From assembly GCA_020137815.1 (NCBI GenBank), contig CM035350.1, positions 62,001 through 126,000 on the forward strand: 64,000 nt of DNA. Reading direction: 5' to 3'. The notes below the pieces were generated by a model. It worked only from the letters and a program-made list of their open reading frames with translations, was not told where the DNA came from and ran no database searches. Of the stretch, positions 7,053-40,665 are shown piece after piece. Origin of the DNA: Hormiphora californensis. Taxonomy: Eukaryota > Animalia > Ctenophora. Every line of letters starts with the position of its first letter. The first letter of the stretch is position 1. The position numbers were made by a program, and so were the translations under genes.

Positions 7053-8505
7053 TCATGAGGATACCCTAGTTGGTTCCAAAGCCGCCTCTTTTTGGCCTTG
7101 GTCGTATTTATACTGCACTCTATCCAAATCTTCCTTGATCTCTAGGCTTTTTTTCTTGTTGTTTTCGAAAAAGACTAGCTGGCCTTTATCTACGTCATTC
7201 TGGTGTTTTAGATCTTTAAACCTCTTCAACAACTCGTCAATTGCTTTAATTTGCCTGAAAAAAAGATTTTTTTAAAGCTGAGCTTTTGAACTTATGGATT
7301 TTTTGAAAAGTTTGTAAAAAGGTAAAACAATTATGAATATAAAATCGATTAGAAAGAGGCAAACCGTTTTTGACCAAAAATCTCATCGAATTTCTGTTTA
7401 ACTTTGGTCCCTTCAGCTAAAGGCCACAAACTCTCTTCTTGATGACAGAAAATGACATTATTAAGAACGCTCTTGCTAACGCCCATCATCCGAACCATTT
7501 CCTTGTCGAGATCTGCACACCTCATACTGATGCTCTGAACCTGCAATAATTCCACAATTAAGGCACTTATACAGAGTCTTTGGAGGAAAGAAGGTACAAC
7601 ATCTCAAATATTATGCCCATCACCAATTGGTGCTATCTAGTTTGCTATGTGCCTATTTTTACCAGAAATGGTCGCATGACCTTTACTAGGTTGTCGGCTC
7701 AGCCCCGTAGTTTATAGGGGGATGGGTTGAGCTGAGTTTAGTTTATTTCCGGGTTGGGAGCCTTGCCAGGCCCCGAATCTATACCTTGCCAGGCCCCGAA
7801 TCTATACCTGCCCATTTTCCTTTCTCTTGATGGCCCCATCCAGTGTTTTGGTAGTAGTTTGGACTTGTTTTTGAGTAGTTAGTAATGTTCTCGAGACAAG
7901 CGCATCTTGGTTCATTGTGTCAACCACTTCCAACTTTACTACACCTCGAACCTGGTCAAGATAAGGTTAATGTCTTTGATATCACTGCGCTGACAAGCAC
8001 AAAGGTGACTAACCCCCTCCCCCCCCCCCCCCAGCTGTGCATGTCAGACAGTAGTTTAGTTTTTAGCCAAAAATGGCAGTTATAATCTCACCTCATGCTC
8101 ATCTGCAATTTTCGGACTGTGCACGAAGAATCCCTTGTTTCCAGTTGGGGTGTCTCCAGTACAGGCAAACTTCAAACATTCAATAATCGTTGTCTTTCCA
8201 CTCCCGTTGTCTCCTGAAAAATTAGTTGGCATTATGTACTGTATAAACCAAAGAAGGTTAATAAACACCCGCCCGCTAAAAAAAGCAAGTTGTATAATGT
8301 ATACTACCCGCCCTGCTTCGAAGATCGGGCAGCATATTAAATCTGGTTCCGTTTGTACGGGATACTAACCAACAATTATCGTCACAGGTACAGCAAAGGT
8401 CATGTTGACAGGTCTAGTGGGACCGTAACTCCTTATTCCTCGTATTTCCAGCCTTTTAACACGTGACATAGTCCGTTTGAGCTCCATGTTAGGTGTTTTA
8501 GACAT
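7053..8505 (-). CDS. RAD50: RAD50 N-terminal ATPase half only (~259 aa, 5 exons)
   Basis: Exons 8505-8370, 8213-8092, 7951-7808, 7540-7365 and 7254-7053 splice in frame: [10 protein letters not shown], Walker [47 protein letters not shown]. Stop TGA at 7055-7053. Confidence 0.88.
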
Positions 8506-28460: not shown

Positions 28461-30798
28461 ATGTCCATGAGAACGTTCTAAAACTAGTTAATACCAATAT
28501 ATTCATTAAATTTTACATAATTTATGCATAATTTATGACTTCCCATACTCAAATCAAGATTTTATATAGCCTATTACACGTAGAATAGTCGATTTATGGG
28601 GGGTCTTCCCCGGGACAAAAAGCTCTAAATCCAGCCGTTTTCGCTCTAAGTGTTTTGCAAAAAGGTGGTGCGTATGTATCAGAGTAAGCGTTTGGGACCC
28701 CCTCGTAACTATTGAACGGAACCATCGATCCACTTGAAATTTTGAAGACTAATAGATATCATTGAGGTTGCTTTACATACAAAATTTCAGCTCTTAGCTT
28801 GTCGGGAACATGGTTTAATAAGCGCTCAAAAAGGGCGATAGTCGCATCCGTATGGTATACTGCCGAAGTGAAAATATTGAAAATATGCATAAAATCATGA
28901 ATAGGTGCGTAAATATGCAAATGACGGCTTAACGATGCGAGATAGAGATTTTTTGTCCCGAGTAAGACCCCCCATATCAATAAGCTCAACTTCATCATCC
29001 AAGGCATCGAAATCCATAACATTTTCACTGTCTTTATCATGGTACTTCCTGAACAATTTTTCCCAGCCGTGTTCCCTAATTTCTGGCTTTCTCTCTTTTA
29101 TGTTGATCTCACATTTTAAGCCTTTTGATGCCTGCAAACACGGTGTACCCTCGAACAATCTTTTGATCGCCCAAGTTTTCCAGGGCCATTAATACCCTAT
29201 AATTCCAGTATTCTATCGCTCTTGTCTGAGCTTCATTTAAGTTCTCCCAATACCTCCGCTCAGCTCTTATCAAATCGCCTTGTTCTTCCTCCCACGTCCT
29301 TGCTATCACCGGTATATATTCCATTCTAGCTATGCAATTATTTAGTTAGTGTGTGTTTGTTGGGGGGGTTCAACCTAAAAATTTCCATTTCCATTTGCCA
29401 AAATCCGGGTATCGATGGAAATTTTTAGAATTTTTTAGAAATTTTTAGAAGTTTTTAGTACTAAAAATTTCCAAAAATTTCTAAAAATTTCCAAAAATTT
29501 CCATCAATTTCCAAAAATTTCCAAAAATTTCCAAAAATTTCCATTGACCAAGAAAAGAAAAACTAACAAAAACATGAAAATATACAAACACAGTTGTCGC
29601 AGAACTGGTTACTTTTCCTTACCTCTTGTGAGCACTGAGCATCAATAAATCATTTAATAATAGGTCAAAAACATCGAGATCATATATTGTTTGGCAATCC
29701 GTACAATTTCTTCAGAAATCATAGATTCATTGGCCAACTAAGGCCAACTAAGGGCGTCTCGAAAACTTATTGAAAAGTAAGTTACCAAATAGCACAAGAT
29801 ACCTTACATTCCTTCGGACGGAATGCCTAATACCGTAGTAGATCGGGTTTCTTAGCATACAAAATAGAAACTTTAAACTCTTTTTTAAGCTAGATCACTG
29901 TAGATCATGGATGTAGCTTGTATAACTAACTTACTGTCGAAAACATGCAAAGATTACCTGTCATTAGCTTACAATTGGGTTACCGAAAAACTTCTAAAAA
30001 CTTCTAAAAATTTCTAAAAATTTCCATTTACTTTGTTACCTTCCGTTTGGTCCCAGTTTGAGACGAACCAGACATCGTACGACCTTAAACCAAGCGGCAT
30101 TCGACAGATAATTGTCTCGTGCATGTACCCATCTGGGTGGCGACTCTCCACCTTACCTATGACGCGCGCAATGACGTCACGAGTGACGTCATTGCGCGAG
30201 ACCGACTAACTTTTTTCAAACGCCTCTAGCACCCTGAAGACGTGTTCCGATTTCTGATTTGACGAAAAATCGTTACCGGCAAATCGTCTGAACTTTCAGA
30301 TACTATATAGCGAATTTTCGTAGCTTATCATTTTGAGCCCTTAAATCGCGTCGGAAGTCAAAAATTTGACGAAAAATTCAGCAAATTGAACGTTTTTCGA
30401 ATAAAAACTCCCTTTCCTGACCACTGTGGTCAATGAAACTTTACAAGCTCCTTTGGGGTATTGATTAAAAATATATCGTGATGCAATTACGTCGTTACGA
30501 CGTCACTAATTACGTCAAATGACGTCATTATGACGTCTAAAATACGATTTTCACAGAAATACGTCTCGTTTCTCATATAACGCATCATTTCGACAATATT
30601 ACATCATGAAATAATGTCATGCTGCGATTAGAAACCAAAAAGGGACCTAAATTAAGCCAAAACTAATTGAAATTAGTTGGCGGGAAAGGTGACCCACTTA
30701 CACCTTTGCCTGCTGCCGGGATCAGGGATTTAAGAGTTGAATATAATGGAATAAGACAGTGAAAGAGAGTGTGATAGAGTGAGAGAGAGGGAGAGAGA

Positions 30799-32099: not shown

Positions 32100-33101
32100 A
32101 GAGAATGAGAGAGGGAGAGATAGGGACAGGGAGACAGGGAGGAGAGAGAGAGGGATAGAACGAACAAGAATAAGTTACCCTCGAAAAATATGAGATTGAG
32201 ATACCGAGGGATAGAATGAGAGTTTGTGGTGATACCCGGCAGGAGCAAAAGATGTAAGTGGGTCACCTTTCCCGCCAACTAATTTCAATTAGTTTTGGCT
32301 TAATAGTTATCAATTAATTATACCAAAACTAATTGAAATTAGTAGGCCGGAAAGGTTGCCCTATGATCTGAGCTACCTTTGCCACCGTAACATTCACGGG
32401 GTACAGACAGGGTATAACAGATGCTTCTTCTATCTTCAAAAGGGAATGTACTGGTGCCAAAGGTAGCTCATTCGGAAAAGCAAACATGATTGATTCAGAT
32501 AAAGATTCGAGAAAATTTTCTCGGTTGGTACAGTAGACTGTGGTACCTGGGACCACTTCTTGCTCTGGGTAGGTAGATATGATGTAAAAATAGTATCGGG
32601 CGAGGGGGGTTTGATGGGGAATACCCGTCACACTCACCGGGGTTTCGTGGAGAGGGCCAGCCGGGACCACAGCAGATGGAACAAAGAAATGAAAATGAAA
32701 ATGAACTTCAACATTTATAATAGAGTCATATAAGTGACTCTACCCGCTCTCACACTATAGACATATGCAAACAAGTCATACATATCCTACAAGGCTGAGA
32801 GGCTTAGATCAGGGGGCCAACAGGCAAGAGATATTGGACTGGGTATGATTCTCGACCCTCAAGGTGGTTTCCGAGGGCAAATGGTGCGAGCCGAGTATAA
32901 AGGGAGGCGGAGAGACGTATCCCTTTGGCCTATGCTACAGTTGATTAGATACACGTTTCATACCCACCAATTATTATTATTATTATTATTATATCTAAAA
33001 TGTATACATTACATATACTGCCCCTTTTTTGTGGGCAAAACGGATAGCCATTAATAAGTCCCATTAGAAGTCTCTTCAGTGCACATGTCACTGATTAGAA
33101 G

Positions 33102-34127
33102 TCAGCCACATTTAATTACCCCCCTGCTAACCCAATATCGTCCATTCGGATTGTCTCGCCTCAGTCCTTTCACTGTATCAACGAGAGTTTTCCGTTCTCG
33201 CTGTTCCTCCGGTGTTAGGTCGGGGGAAAGAAACACCGAGGAAAATTTCTCTGAATCCCGGAGCTGCTTTGCTTTCCTGAGAAGCTGCAACAAGGTTTCC
33301 CTCCTTTCAAGGGTAACGATTACTGGTCTTGGTCGGTTATCAGTCTTTTCGCCGACTCGCTTTGTGGAAGTTATGACTGGTTTTTCATTCAGCTCTGTAA
33401 AAATATCTCGAACTTCATGCTCAGTGGTTCTTGCAGTAGTTTCTGGTAGCCCAAACAAAACCAAATTCAGCTTTCGATCAGGAGTTGCTTCTTCTGTTGT
33501 ACCGCCTGTGGGAAGGGGCACTGACGCTTTCTTCCATGCTGCTTGGAGGCGGGATGGTGCAATAGCCGCTGAGCAGTTCTGGACAAGTACTTTGGAGTAG
33601 CCCTGCAATTGCTTCTGAACAGACTCCGACACCGAATTGAGTTTCTGACCTTGTACTTCAATCAAACTTTTTTGTGCTTCAATCAGCTTCTCTTGTAACT
33701 CAATCCTTGATACCCGATGTTTATCAACCTCTTCCTTGAATGAGCCAAGCTCTTTTTGTACCTCCTTGAGTTTCCGATTACACTCCTCTAGTTCCCGACG
33801 TTCTTTCATACGGGCAGTTTCATCGTTATTTTTCATACATTGTCCAGCTTCCCTCGCTATCAGAAGAATATGACGGCAGAGTTTCTTGGTGAAGGCCATG
33901 AACTGATCTCCATCATAATTTCTTGGAGCGTAGTCTACTGGCAGTGATCGACTGGAATCCAAGAATAACATTCGCAGCTTTTCATCCACCTGATAGTGAC
34001 TCGGTTTGGTTCCATTCCTGATTAACAAAACGTCTCTTACTGCATAACGAAGTAGTTCCATCACCGAGGGATCAACACATTTCAGTGGATCGGCATCTGC
34101 ATCAGAGGTCTTGAGTTTCTCCGTCAT
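33102..34127 (-). CDS. LINE ORF1-like protein, 341 aa
   Basis: Coiled coil, DRKLNLVLFGLPE, RVGEKTDNRPRPVIVTL, VFLSPDLTPEEQRERK. Homologous to 31051-32019 (shared QNCSAAxAP). Confidence 0.85.
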   Translation of the reverse strand: MTEKLKTSDADADPLKCVDPSVMELLRYAVRDVLLIRNGTKPSHYQVDEKLRMLFLDSSRSLPVDYAPRNYDGDQFMAFTKKLCRHILLIAREAGQCMKNNDETARMKERRELEECNRKLKEVQKELGSFKEEVDKHRVSRIELQEKLIEAQKSLIEVQGQKLNSVSESVQKQLQGYSKVLVQNCSAAIAPSRLQAAWKKASVPLPTGGTTEEATPDRKLNLVLFGLPETTARTTEHEVRDIFTELNEKPVITSTKRVGEKTDNRPRPVIVTLERRETLLQLLRKAKQLRDSEKFSSVFLSPDLTPEEQRERKTLVDTVKGLRRDNPNGRYWVSRGVIKCG

Positions 34128-34174
34128 AACTTCTGCCTGCCCCTACGGGCGGTCTCAACATCCTGAGGACATAT

Positions 34175-34207
34175 CTCAAATTAATTTGTTTAAAGTAGTG
34201 TTGAAAA
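34175..34207 (-). other. Genomic copy of spliced-leader exon (5'-truncated)
   Basis: Minus strand TTTTCAACACTACTTTAAACAAATTAATTTGAG, followed by AT rather than a GT donor. Matches my recollection of the ctenophore SL; second copy at 59097-59140. Confidence 0.8.
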
Positions 34208-34228
34208 CAACATGAATTAAAGAGTTTA

Positions 34229-35945
34229 ACGGCCAGCGTTAAAATCTGGGTGTTTTGGGAGTGCTGACAAACGGTTTTTTAGGGTTAGGGCTAAAGTAGG
34301 ATTAGGGTTAGGGTTGGGGTTTGGGTTGGGGTTAGGCCTTGACATTCCCTACCAGAAAATTCACTAACCCCAACACCGATTGGCATCACTTTCCAGCAGC
34401 CGAAGAGAAGCTGCCGAAGAGAGAAAGGGGGTAACCGTATGAAGAGTTAATCGCGATGAGTCTCATTCACATTGGGTTCGATCATTTGCCCCCGGTGTTG
34501 GGGTTAGTAATAAACTTTGAATCAGCTAAAACGGTTGAGTGGTTTGGCGGTAAGAGCCATTTTAGTGAATCAACTTTTTTGGCAGCGCGCGGCGTCGCAA
34601 TGCATCGCGTTTTTGTCTTTTTTTGGCGCCCTTCTGCAAATGTGAGGGCGCGGCAGAGAAAAGACGGAAACACGATGTCACACCAGATAGAACTAGTAGG
34701 AGACACTAAAGTCGGATTTTTTGAAACTGTCATCCCCCTGAAATAGCAAAATAAACCGGATTTATGGTCATTTGCGAAATTTGAAAATACCCAGGGGGTG
34801 ACAGTTTCAAAAAATCCGATATTACACCCCAAACGGGCGCGATTATAATCTGGGTGCCTTGCAGCCTGTTTACAGGTGCGCGCTACCAAAAGAGTATACT
34901 TAGACCGACTTTTTTCAAACGGCTATGCCATGGAACCACATGGCCGATTTGAGTAAACTAAACAGTATCAGTTAGAGAATCGATAACCCTAACCGATAAC
35001 CACAAACCAAACCCTAACCAGACCCTGTCTGGCGCTGCGACCCACCTGAGCGCAAATTGGGGTCTGGCGCCGCCAGACAGACCAGACCCTAACGGATAGC
35101 CCTAACCCGTCGCGCGCGCCAAAACTACGAATTGTTAGCAATGAAAGGCACCCAGATTTTAACGTTTTCCACCCCAAACTACTAAAGTACACCCCAAACT
35201 ACTATGTCCCTCACTCGGGTTTTGTGAAATTTCCCACGGTCATAACTCCACTCCCTGATGAGATAGAGACTTGAAATTTGTTGTGTACGAAGAACTCGAT
35301 ATGATCTCCCTACAAAACAAATTTCAAGTCTCTATCTTATCAGGGGGTGGAGCTATGGCCGTCTAAAATCCGGTCGCGCGCAGCAAGGGACATAGTAGTT
35401 TGGGAGGACCTTTAGCGTGGTACGCGCAAAAAAATGCGCGCCACATACCTAAAATAACAGGTGTGTAGCGCGCATTTTTTTGCGTGTACCACGCTAGTGT
35501 CTCCTACTAAACGGGGGGGAAACGTTAAAATCTGGGACGCCGTTACGATCTGGGTGTTTGGTGGCCTGTTTACAGGTGCGCGCTGCCAAAAAAGTTGATT
35601 CACTAAAATGACTCTAACCGCCAAACCACTCAACCGTTTTGGCTATTTCAAAGTTTATCTGGAAGGAAATGTCAAGGCCTAACCCCAACCCAAACCCCAG
35701 CCCTAACCCTAACCCCACTTTAGCCATAACCCTAAAAAACCGTTTGTCAGCACTCACGAAACACCCAGATTTTAACGCTGGCCTAAAATCTGGGTGCCTT
35801 CCATTCATCGATTTTGGCAGTCGAGACGGGTTAGGGCTGTTGTTAGGGTCGGGTTAGGGGTTTGTTTGGGGTTATCGGTTAGGGCTATCGATTCTTTATC
35901 AGATACCGTTTAGTATCTCAAATCGGCCATGTGGTTGCACGGCTA
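34229..35945. mobile_element. Nested foldback/MITE cluster with degenerate (GGGTTA)n cores
   Basis: 34229-34350 is inverted at 35670-35785; 34520-34590 at 35578-35645; 34935-35160 at 35787-35940. The inner MITE at ~35190-35410 recurs at ~60425-60715. Confidence 0.7.
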
Positions 35946-38610: not shown

Positions 38611-38669
38611 GCACTTGAATCAGTACTTTGATAATTGATACCTGCCTGCCGCCTGGAAAATAATTTCGG

Positions 38670-39373
38670 TATTATCTCCTACAGACTGGACTTCAAAGCC
38701 TGTCTAATCGCTTATAAGATAGTCTATGGAATGGCACCAGGTTACCTCCAGGAAATGGTTCCTCTTGATAAAAGCTGGGGAGTCTCCAGGACAACAAGGA
38801 TGACTAGTGTTATTGATCCTTACAGATTAAAACACCCCAAGATGACCAGTATCAACGCCAATTCTAAATTGAGACGTAGGAGACTATCAGTATTTCTGCC
38901 TGCTATTTGGAATGAGCTACCCCTCGAGTTAAGGTCGATCCCCAACGTTGATACCTTTAAAGCTCGCCTGAAAACACATCTCTTCGTTGGTGCATTTGGA
39001 GTGGGTGATGGGGAACCCATGGCTGAGTTGTAATGTTTGTTGTAGTTGTGGGGTCTGCGGGCAATCAGTGTCATCCTCTCTCTAGTCATGTTATTAAATC
39101 ACTATCTGGTATCCTTTTTTGAGCAGGTGTGAGTATAGCGTGTTTAAAATTATATCTACAGGTTTATGGGACCAGTTATTCCCCCAGTTTGATAAGTCCA
39201 GTTAATTTGGTTTTCCATATATTGTCTTTTTCAACCAGAATTGTTCGTGTGCGATATTTTTACTCTAGGATATACCGCTCTGATGACTCGTCGGAACATC
39301 GCCAATATTTTGACATGTTTCCGTCGGGTATGGGCGGTATATAAGCGCGGAATATTATTATTATTATTATTAT
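38670..39373 (+). mobile_element. L2 LINE 3' end (ORF2 C-terminus, 3' UTR, (TAT)n tail)
   Basis: YRLDFKACLIAYKIVYGMAPGYL..PAIWNELPLELRSIPNVDTFKARLKTHLF; tail attattattatt at ~39352-39373. Confidence 0.88.
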
Positions 39374-40499: not shown

Positions 40500-40665
40500 G
40501 TTAAGGAGATATTAATTAGTATTCTGAATAATGAGTTCAGAGCGAGAATTAAAATAGGGAAGAAAATCGAAAAATACTGGGTTTGACCGGGAATTGAACC
40601 AGGGACCTCCAGAGAGAGAGAGAGAGACATGCTCGGAGCTATAAACCACTAAGCTACCAAACCCT
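40500..40665 (-). mobile_element. tRNA-derived SINE head
   Basis: Minus strand GGTAGCTTAGTGGT (A box) ... GGTTCAATTCCC (B box), with a CT microsatellite in between. Flanked by ~90-bp direct repeats at 40398-40485 and 40731-40823. Confidence 0.65.

What the first reader, a model, noticed from the sequence alone, without database searches (positions are those of the whole stretch)
32971..34207. Spliced-leader-capped, ORF1-only retroelement: a retrotransposed trans-spliced mRNA
Seen in sequence (minus strand): TTTTCAACACTACTTTAAACAAATTAATTTGAG, a 47-nt leader, an intact 341-aa LINE-ORF1-like ORF, a ~110-nt 3' UTR and a (TAA)n tail, with no ORF2. Known, from recollection: this matches the 3' part of the ctenophore SL exon added by trans-splicing. 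It is not followed by GT, so it is not an SL RNA gene. Inference: a non-autonomous 'half-LINE' whose RNA acquires the host SL (cap, translation boost) and is then copied by a LINE RT, fixing the SL in DNA. It could be a promoter-less family that relies on read-through plus trans-splicing, or an ORF1 decoy interfering with LINE RNPs.
Basis: partly seen in the sequence, partly recalled or inferred. Interest (0 to 1): 0.88.

Follow-up and report, generated by a model that had tools for sequence, protein, structure and literature searches.

The report
Spliced-leader-headed, ORF1-only comb-jelly retroelements
A comb-jelly jumping gene that encodes only a LINE-type RNA-binding protein begins with the host's spliced-leader mRNA sequence, and related families begin with either of two such leaders, so these elements likely copy themselves from trans-spliced RNA with a borrowed reverse transcriptase and may get a fresh front end from the host each cycle.

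Summary
Observation confirmed and extended. The 33-mer equals the 3' 33 of 44 nt of the published Hormiphora spliced leader (SL1). The 341-aa ORF folds like human L1 ORF1p, and no ORF2 follows. It is a family, not a one-off. Contig depth suggests roughly 11-23 near-identical copies. Of 112 relatives, none lies on a contig of 3.5 kb or more (median 1.36 kb). The conserved half is under purifying selection. Four other records from three further ORF1 lineages also start with a leader: SL1 (L001) or a second, SL-like leader, SL2 (L002, P0116, P0246). SL2 also joins this element at the same base as SL1 in 2 of 4 runs, and leader type does not follow the ORF1 tree. Best reading: HAL1/HeT-A-like non-autonomous LINE derivatives copied from trans-spliced RNA. 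Not shown: the partner LINE, the promoter, and whether the genomic leader's own AG is the acceptor. ORF1-only LINEs and SL-tagged retrocopies are each published; I found no paper on the combination or on ctenophores. The scan noted SL-capped LINEs (dinoflagellates) and an ORF1-only element in SL genes (sea squirt) on other DNA.

The parts
34175..34207 (-). Spliced-leader exon SL1, 5'-truncated (positions 12-44 of the 44-nt published leader); its only AG is the last two bases
34128..34174 (-). 47-nt 5' UTR with two upstream ATGs (a 5-codon uORF and an out-of-frame uORF over the start); the site where SL1 or SL2 joins
33102..34127 (-). Intact ORF1, 341 aa: variable N-terminal helices, long coiled coil (about 73-188), RRM and CTD (about 217-340); L1-ORF1p-like (type II)
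32993..33101 (-). 3' UTR, about 109 nt, with a 5-bp hairpin at 33037-33019 just upstream of the tail (predicted; whole UTR folds no better than shuffles, z -1.0)
32971..32992 (-). (TAA)n tandem tail, about 7 units; no target-site duplication longer than 5 nt

Best explanation
This is a young copy of a multi-copy, ORF1-only retroelement family that carries the host's spliced leader at its front and is likely copied from trans-spliced RNA by a borrowed LINE reverse transcriptase. Step 1 (inferred): a copy is transcribed, probably by read-through, since flanks differ between copies and no promoter is known. Step 2 (inferred from junctions): the spliceosome joins a capped leader, SL1 or SL2, at one fixed base of the 5' UTR. 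Step 3 (inferred): ORF1p is made and coats the RNA; selection on the RRM-CTD half says the source copies need it. Step 4 (inferred): an APE-RT ORF2 of an autonomous L2/CR1-group LINE primes at the hairpin and tail and copies up to near the cap, which leaves a leader with a ragged 5' end and a fixed 3' junction in DNA. Which AG is the acceptor is open: the terminal AG of the genomic leader itself (about 0.45 of this reading) or an unseen leader-less source copy (about 0.4).
For: Exact SL match. ORF1 fold: the 10 best PDB hits are human L1 ORF1p, best E 6e-6. Multi-copy: in run X6 a 99-nt contig identical to the ORF start has depth 8,659, against 560-808 for variant contigs and 370-757 for contigs in the downstream flank; in X2 the element assembles at depth 6 while the flank bin 32835-32961 has none. 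ORF1-only: one X2 contig runs 33002-33571 without a difference, from ORF into the tail, at the same depth as the ORF 5' half; 0 of 112 relatives lie on contigs of 3.5 kb or more, against 10 of 16 ORF2 records. Other SL heads: L001 starts with 26 nt of SL1, 56 nt before its ORF1; L002 has 8 nt, then SL2, ORF1, UTR and a (GTATTT)n tail; P0116 (a Pleurobrachia bachei gene model) and P0246 read through two different flanks into SL2 and a third ORF1 family. Same junction, two leaders: a loose end behind 34179 in X6 and X1 completes the last 14 nt of SL2. Leader type does not follow the tree: L001 (SL1) sits with L002 (SL2) in a 98/96 clade apart from both this element and the P0105 family. 5' ends of the leaders differ between copies. 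Selection: 9 of 11 listed variants in codons 165-333 are synonymous (P 7e-5 at 23% expected); L001 against L002 C-terminal half dN 0.25, dS 2.36. Intact APE-RT ORF2s 91-93% identical to a LINE fragment of the window exist.
Against: No genome was held, so copies, junctions and flanks were not counted directly; the tool warns that depth is no copy number. The SL2 junction rests on one contig in each of two runs with 9 loose letters; 19 loose ends were not shown. The junction contigs have only 13-22 letters on the leader side, below the tool's 31-letter rule for bridging. Whether L001, L002, X1 and X3 are DNA or RNA is not on record. SL2 is not shown to be a host SL RNA: its status is inferred from shared ends with SL1 and its position. 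No abundant LINE shares the 3' UTR at 85% identity (3' UTR depth is no higher than ORF depth in 4 of 4 runs). The leader ends in GAG, a disfavoured 3' splice site in most animals (recalled). The neighbouring ORF1-only element B has no leader. The variants were a best-supported subset (40 of 234 rows shown) and come largely from one sister subfamily.
Confidence: 0.74

Rival explanations
1. Source copies sit in SL RNA genes by site-specific insertion at the exon end and are co-transcribed from the SL promoter, so the leader is added by transcription, not by splicing; dispersed copies such as this one are spill-over.
For: It would also give SL1 and SL2 at one junction. SL-gene-targeting retrotransposons are known (NeSL, SLACS/CRE; recalled, search listing only), and an earlier scan note reports an ORF1-only element in sea-squirt SL genes (not checked).
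Against: This copy has a truncated leader, no GT intron behind the tail, and a 3' flank at low-copy depth (757 in X6). P0116 and P0246 have unrelated flanks. A further degenerate SL1 copy without GT lies at 59138-59097, so dispersed leader copies are common here. Four lineages with different 5' UTRs would all need the same exact target.
Confidence: 0.12
2. The leaders were captured in the past (by trans-splicing or template switching) and are now inherited as ordinary DNA; read-through transcripts are copied without fresh splicing.
For: L002 and the P0105 family share SL2 plus the start of the 5' UTR, which shows some vertical inheritance of 5' ends. GAG is a weak acceptor (recalled).
Against: The leader is identical to the present host SL while ORF1 N-termini are 17-37% identical. 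One subfamily has both leaders at one base. Leader type is scattered on the tree. Without renewal, 5' truncation would erode the head.
Confidence: 0.08
3. A host-domesticated ORF1 gene or decoy (L1TD1-like) whose ordinary trans-spliced mRNA yields processed pseudogenes and which restrains LINE particles.
For: Intact frame, purifying selection, expression in an RNA run (X8 covers 33100-33785), fast-changing N-terminus.
Against: Many subfamilies at 46-100% identity, each on element-sized contigs with tandem-repeat tails; no leader-less source seen at the junction (partial list). PMC5786205 expects such ORF1s to help their own transposition.
Confidence: 0.05
4. A one-off retrocopy, or the 5' half of a full LINE cut short at an A-rich site.
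For: No target-site duplication; partner LINE not identified.
Against: Copy depth, the shared 3' end in X2 and X1, the identical protein on 6 contigs of at most 1,499 nt (P0014), and contig lengths.
Confidence: 0.01

Closest known systems
ORF1-present non-autonomous LINEs: HAL1 (L1 clade), HeT-A (Jockey), Ag-Sponge (CR1) (PMC5786205, passages)
   Same: One ORF1-type protein, no RT, LINE-like 3' end, multi-copy, mobilised in trans.
   Different: Those keep the 5' part of their parent LINE; here the 5' end is a host spliced leader, two leader types alternate, and the parent LINE is unidentified.
DinoSL-tagged retrogenes, 'mRNA recycling' in dinoflagellates (PMC6050394, PMC3229502, passages)
   Same: A trans-spliced leader is fixed in DNA by retroposition, and a new leader can be spliced at an AG of the old one.
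   Different: There the AG is internal, so truncated relics pile up in tandem on host genes. Here the only AG of the genomic fragment is terminal, so re-splicing would replace the leader exactly; the substrate is a selfish ORF1-only element in an animal.
SL exons merged to transposable elements in flatworms (PMC12582326: 597 loci; PMC5832876: 6 loci) and SL-bearing TE transcripts in Hydra (PMC12220107: about 30% of TE reads) (passages)
   Same: TE RNAs receive the SL, and partial leaders occur in DNA at LINE/LTR loci.
   Different: Reported in passing, with assembly artefact left open in one paper; no family defined by an SL head, no ORF1-only anatomy, no alternative leaders at one junction.
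Type II ORF1 (coiled coil-RRM-CTD; PDB 2yko) of L1, L2 and CR1 clades (PMC4120745, passages)
   Same: Same domain order and best structural hits.
   Different: No Pfam PF02994 hit, no PHD finger; clade cannot be set without an RT.
SL-gene-targeting retrotransposons NeSL, SLACS/CRE/CZAR (recalled; search listing only)
   Same: Retroelement next to SL exon sequence.
   Different: Those are autonomous RLE elements inside SL genes; this copy has no RT and no SL intron behind it.

Membership tests
ORF1-present non-autonomous LINE (HAL1/HeT-A/Ag-Sponge kind) | Encodes a LINE ORF1 protein | tested here: met
   Coiled coil-RRM-CTD model; 10 best PDB hits are human L1 ORF1p
ORF1-present non-autonomous LINE (HAL1/HeT-A/Ag-Sponge kind) | No ORF2 (endonuclease-RT) | tested here: met
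   ORF runs into UTR and tail in the window and in X2; 0 of 112 relatives on contigs of 3.5 kb or more; the only protein over 400 aa among the best 150 hits is a gene model fused to host PSF3
ORF1-present non-autonomous LINE (HAL1/HeT-A/Ag-Sponge kind) | Multi-copy and dispersed, with a common 3' end | tested here: met
   Indirect: depth ratio about 11-23; different flanks shown only for the sister P0105 family
ORF1-present non-autonomous LINE (HAL1/HeT-A/Ag-Sponge kind) | 3' end shared with an autonomous partner LINE | tested here: inconclusive
   Hairpin plus an 11-nt motif (1 mismatch) shared with an L2-like 3' end at 39332, but the motif also occurs once at 8327 and the tail triplet differs
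ORF1-present non-autonomous LINE (HAL1/HeT-A/Ag-Sponge kind) | ORF1 under purifying selection | tested here: met
   9 of 11 listed variants synonymous; dN/dS about 0.11 for L001 against L002 C-terminal half; other pairs saturated
HAL1 proper | Derived from an L1-clade element, poly(A) tail and TSD, L1 5' promoter | tested here: not met
   Tandem (TAA)n tail, no TSD over 5 nt, SL head; HAL1 hallmarks recalled
SL-tagged retrocopy | Leader exon in DNA, joined at its 3' end to a non-intron sequence | tested here: met
   33 of 33 nt match, followed by AT
SL-tagged retrocopy | The RNA is trans-spliced at that junction | tested here: inconclusive
   Two leaders at one base in 2 of 4 runs, but contigs only, library type not on record
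SL RNA gene | Full exon followed by a GT donor and intron | tested here: not met
   Truncated exon, followed by AT; no Rfam SL hit, though Rfam may lack a ctenophore model
SL-gene-targeting element | SL gene sequence on both sides of the insertion | tested here: not met
   For this copy only: low-copy 3' flank, no intron; other copies not testable without a genome

The most novel reading that the evidence does not exclude
Ctenophore ORF1-only retroelements have replaced their promoter and 5' end with a self-renewing host module: each genomic copy's leader ends in the only AG available, so read-through transcripts are re-trans-spliced at exactly that base, restoring a full capped leader (SL1 or SL2) every cycle. 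This would remove the 5'-truncation penalty of target-primed reverse transcription, let almost any insertion in transcribed DNA act as a source, and explain a radiation of many such families and part of the 718 leader copies in the Hormiphora genome.
Probability: 0.33. Interest if true: 0.82.

Novelty: new variant of a known kind. Interest (0 to 1): 0.63.

Why it matters
It would be a worked animal case of a retroelement family whose 5' end is supplied by the host's trans-splicing machinery, where flatworm and Hydra papers have only passing observations. Two leaders at one junction make the mechanism directly testable with existing long-read cDNA and genome data. It suggests that many of the 718 leader copies counted in Hormiphora are retroelement heads, not SL RNA genes, and it points to a second ctenophore leader class. 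It also adds an early-branching-animal example of why non-autonomous LINEs keep ORF1.

Tried and rejected
No genome of the window was held. Scans for the leader found 0 matches in viral contigs and genome contigs, and the ORF had no relative in viral contigs. Pfam gave no ORF1 family hit; a PDB sequence search gave only coiled-coil matches. TSD search: nothing over 5 nt. BLASTN of the 3' UTR against the window found no second copy. 3' UTR folding is not better than shuffles for this element (z -1.0) or L002 (z 0.3). The 5' flank 34210-34230 had no cover in 4 of 4 runs; a hole proves nothing, so polymorphism is not claimed. N-terminal variants were 9 of 9 non-synonymous, not significant (P 0.09), so positive selection is not claimed. 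P0104 looked like an ORF1-ORF2 fusion but is ORF1 joined to host PSF3. The consensus of loose ends before 34175 did not show a GT intron (agreement 0.43-0.69), so the SL RNA gene was not recovered. The bacterial promoter scan is not applicable. Cluster P0091 (32% identity to element B) lies on contigs up to 545 kb and was left out of the length count, as were all 83 rows (the other 68 rows are at most 2,192 nt) and 2 rows without length. No formal one-clade test was run. Derelle et al. 2010 and the Hormiphora supplements could not be read; either may already list SL2.

Full report
1. Observation. The minus strand 34207-32971 holds a 33-nt AT-rich head, a 47-nt 5' UTR, a 341-codon ORF (34127-33102), about 109 nt of 3' UTR and a (TAA)7 tail. 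The head equals positions 12-44 of the 44-nt Hormiphora californensis leader given in PMC8527503 (passages read), which also reports 718 genomic copies and the leader on 56% of Iso-Seq reads. The head is followed by AT. The missing 5' part of the leader appears behind 34207 in contigs of X6, X3 and X1, so the full leader exists in this organism and this copy is 5'-truncated. Named relatives come from Pleurobrachia bachei gene models, so the window is most likely a pleurobrachiid ctenophore; the species was not determined.

2. The protein. Pfam gives nothing above cut-off. An AlphaFold model on 11 sequences (mean pLDDT 74.6, pTM 0.32) shows a long helix (73-188) followed by an RRM and a C-terminal domain. 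The 10 best Foldseek hits in PDB are human L1 ORF1p, best E 6.4e-6. This is the type II ORF1 found in L1, L2 and CR1 clades (PMC4120745, passages). The clade cannot be set without an RT.

3. A family, and ORF1-only. The homolog search gave 13 clusters, 12 of them at 46-100% identity on contigs of 1.1-1.5 kb. Across 112 cluster members with a length (2 rows without length dropped) the median contig is 1,357 nt, 3 reach 2 kb and none reaches 3.5 kb. As a control, ORF2 relatives of an L2-like fragment in the window lie on contigs of median 4,055 nt, 10 of 16 at 3.5 kb or more. That control is biased, since a long protein needs a long contig, but it shows that full LINEs do assemble in such data. 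The window's exact protein is on 6 contigs of at most 1,499 nt. In X2 one contig spans 33002-33571 with no difference at depth 5.97, and the ORF 5' half has 6.35, while the adjoining flank bin has none. In X6 a 99-nt contig identical to the ORF start has depth 8,659, variant contigs 560-808, and downstream-flank contigs 370 and 757: roughly 11-23 copies, with the tool's warning that depth is no copy number. A sister subfamily about 87-90% identical is also present. Of the 40 variant rows shown (194 not shown), 11 fall in the ORF and 9 are synonymous (P 7e-5). L001 against L002 gives dN 0.25 and dS 2.36 in the C-terminal half; pairs with this element are saturated.

4. Leaders on other lineages. 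The metagenome scan returned 2 loci. L001 begins with the last 26 nt of the same leader, then 56 nt of UTR and an ORF1 51% identical in the C-terminal half. L002 begins with 8 nt, then a 43-nt leader (SL2) that shares its start and its last five bases with SL1, a 20-nt UTR, ORF1, a 3' UTR with a similar hairpin and a (GTATTT)n tail. Among 381 stored proteins, 2 read through a leader: P0116 and P0246 both translate SL2 in front of a third ORF1 family, after 108 and 25 residues of unrelated upstream sequence. Upstream sequence means SL2 is in DNA there, at two different sites. The leaders start at different points in each copy, while the 3' junction is always the leader's end. On a 31-sequence ML tree, L001 (SL1) lies with L002 (SL2) in a 98/96 clade that excludes both this element's clade (99/99) and the P0105 family (100/99), so leader type has changed more than once; no formal clade test was run.

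5. Two leaders at one junction. On the stretch 33960-34230, one contig each in X6 and X1 leaves the window behind 34179 with 9 letters that, with the 5 shared letters, equal the last 14 nt of SL2. In X1 the stem 34136-34179 has depth 764 and the SL1 branch 34150-34196 has 318; in X3, the same sample, the contig 34136-34187 runs unbranched into SL1 at 1,364; X2 lists no contig across the junction. No loose end suggesting a leader-less upstream was listed, but 19 loose ends were hidden, and these contigs fall short of the tool's 31-letter bridging rule. Leader-to-element depth is about 50 in X6 and X2 and about 500-600 in X1 and X3, which suggests that X1 and X3 are cDNA; this is my inference. 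The RNA run X8 covers the 3' two-thirds of the ORF but DNA in that library is not excluded.

6. Mechanism. Shown: leader in DNA at an exact exon end, ORF1 fold, no ORF2, multiple lineages, two leader types. Inferred: transcription by read-through, spliceosomal trans-splicing at the fixed junction, ORF1p binding, and copying by an APE-RT LINE. Intact such ORF2s exist, and an L2-like 3' end at 38635-39373 has a like arrangement of hairpin, 11-nt motif and triplet tail, but its triplet is ATT, not AAT, and the motif also occurs once elsewhere in the window; the partner is therefore unidentified. Both genomic leader fragments have a single AG, at the very end. In dinoflagellates a new leader is spliced at an AG of the old one (PMC3229502, passages). 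Here the same reaction would replace the head exactly. Against this, GAG is a weak acceptor (recalled), and a single leader-less source copy is not excluded.

7. Literature. ORF1-only non-autonomous LINEs are known (HAL1, HeT-A, Ag-Sponge; PMC5786205, passages). SL-tagged retrocopies are known in dinoflagellates (PMC6050394, passages). Partial leaders at TE loci are noted in flatworms (PMC12582326, PMC5832876, passages), and about 30% of Hydra TE reads carry a leader (PMC12220107, passages). PMC7986045, PMC3795323, PMC4494074, PMC4558846 and PMC9911081 (passages) added nothing on this. Ten full-text searches (listings seen, only the top 30 of 228 and 25 of 177) showed no paper on SL-headed ORF1-only elements or on ctenophore cases, and the search for an SL2 17-mer found 0 papers. 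Subscription papers are mostly absent from the library, Derelle et al. 2010 and the Hormiphora supplements could not be read, and Repbase was not searchable. Earlier scan notes on other genomes describe SL-capped autonomous LINEs in dinoflagellates and an ORF1-only element inside sea-squirt SL genes; I did not check them, and the latter prompted the first rival.

8. Verdict. Real, multi-copy, and richer than first reported. A new variant of a known kind: both ingredients are published, the combination, the swappable leaders and the possible self-renewing head were not found in print. Interest 0.63.

Noticed in passing
window 31968-31051 (-), element about 32067-30880: Second intact ORF1-only element (305 aa, 35% identical) with no leader. 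It sits in the middle of a (CT)n tract inside a 70-nt-TIR element (30651-30720 / 32235-32304), so a long pyrimidine tract ending in CAG lies directly before its 5' UTR and could serve as a trans-splice acceptor. Relatives are also on 1.0-1.4 kb contigs.
   Followed up: partly
window 59138-59097 (-): Degenerate, nearly full-length SL1 copy with two 1-nt insertions, not followed by GT; the sequence behind it has no Pfam hit. Probably an old leader-tagged retrocopy.
   Followed up: partly
L002 9-51: A second ctenophore leader-like sequence (SL2), not found in the searchable papers; may be in Derelle et al. 2010, which could not be read.
   Followed up: partly
window 38635-39373 (+): 5'-truncated L2-like LINE 3' end with (ATT)7 tail; intact relatives 91-93% identical with endonuclease and RT domains exist.
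   Followed up: partly
window about 46100-42417 (-): Decayed CR1-like LINE with a weak RT hit (E 0.009) and a 10-nt tandem tail; clade label is my recall.
   Followed up: no
window 34231-35783: High-copy TIR element with telomere-like TTAGGG repeats, ending 23 nt upstream of the leader; a possible source of read-through transcription.
   Followed up: no
window 34174-34128 (-) and L001 27-82: Both SL1-headed 5' UTRs hold a 4-5 codon uORF right after the leader and a similar GCCC/GGGC hairpin.
   Followed up: no
window 18345-16447 and 27501-25570 (-): Two intronless paralogous F-box/LRR genes (632 and 643 aa) in a tandem duplication about 9.1 kb apart.
   Followed up: no
window 40579-40663 (-): tRNA-like match just above the Rfam threshold; possibly a SINE head.
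   Followed up: no
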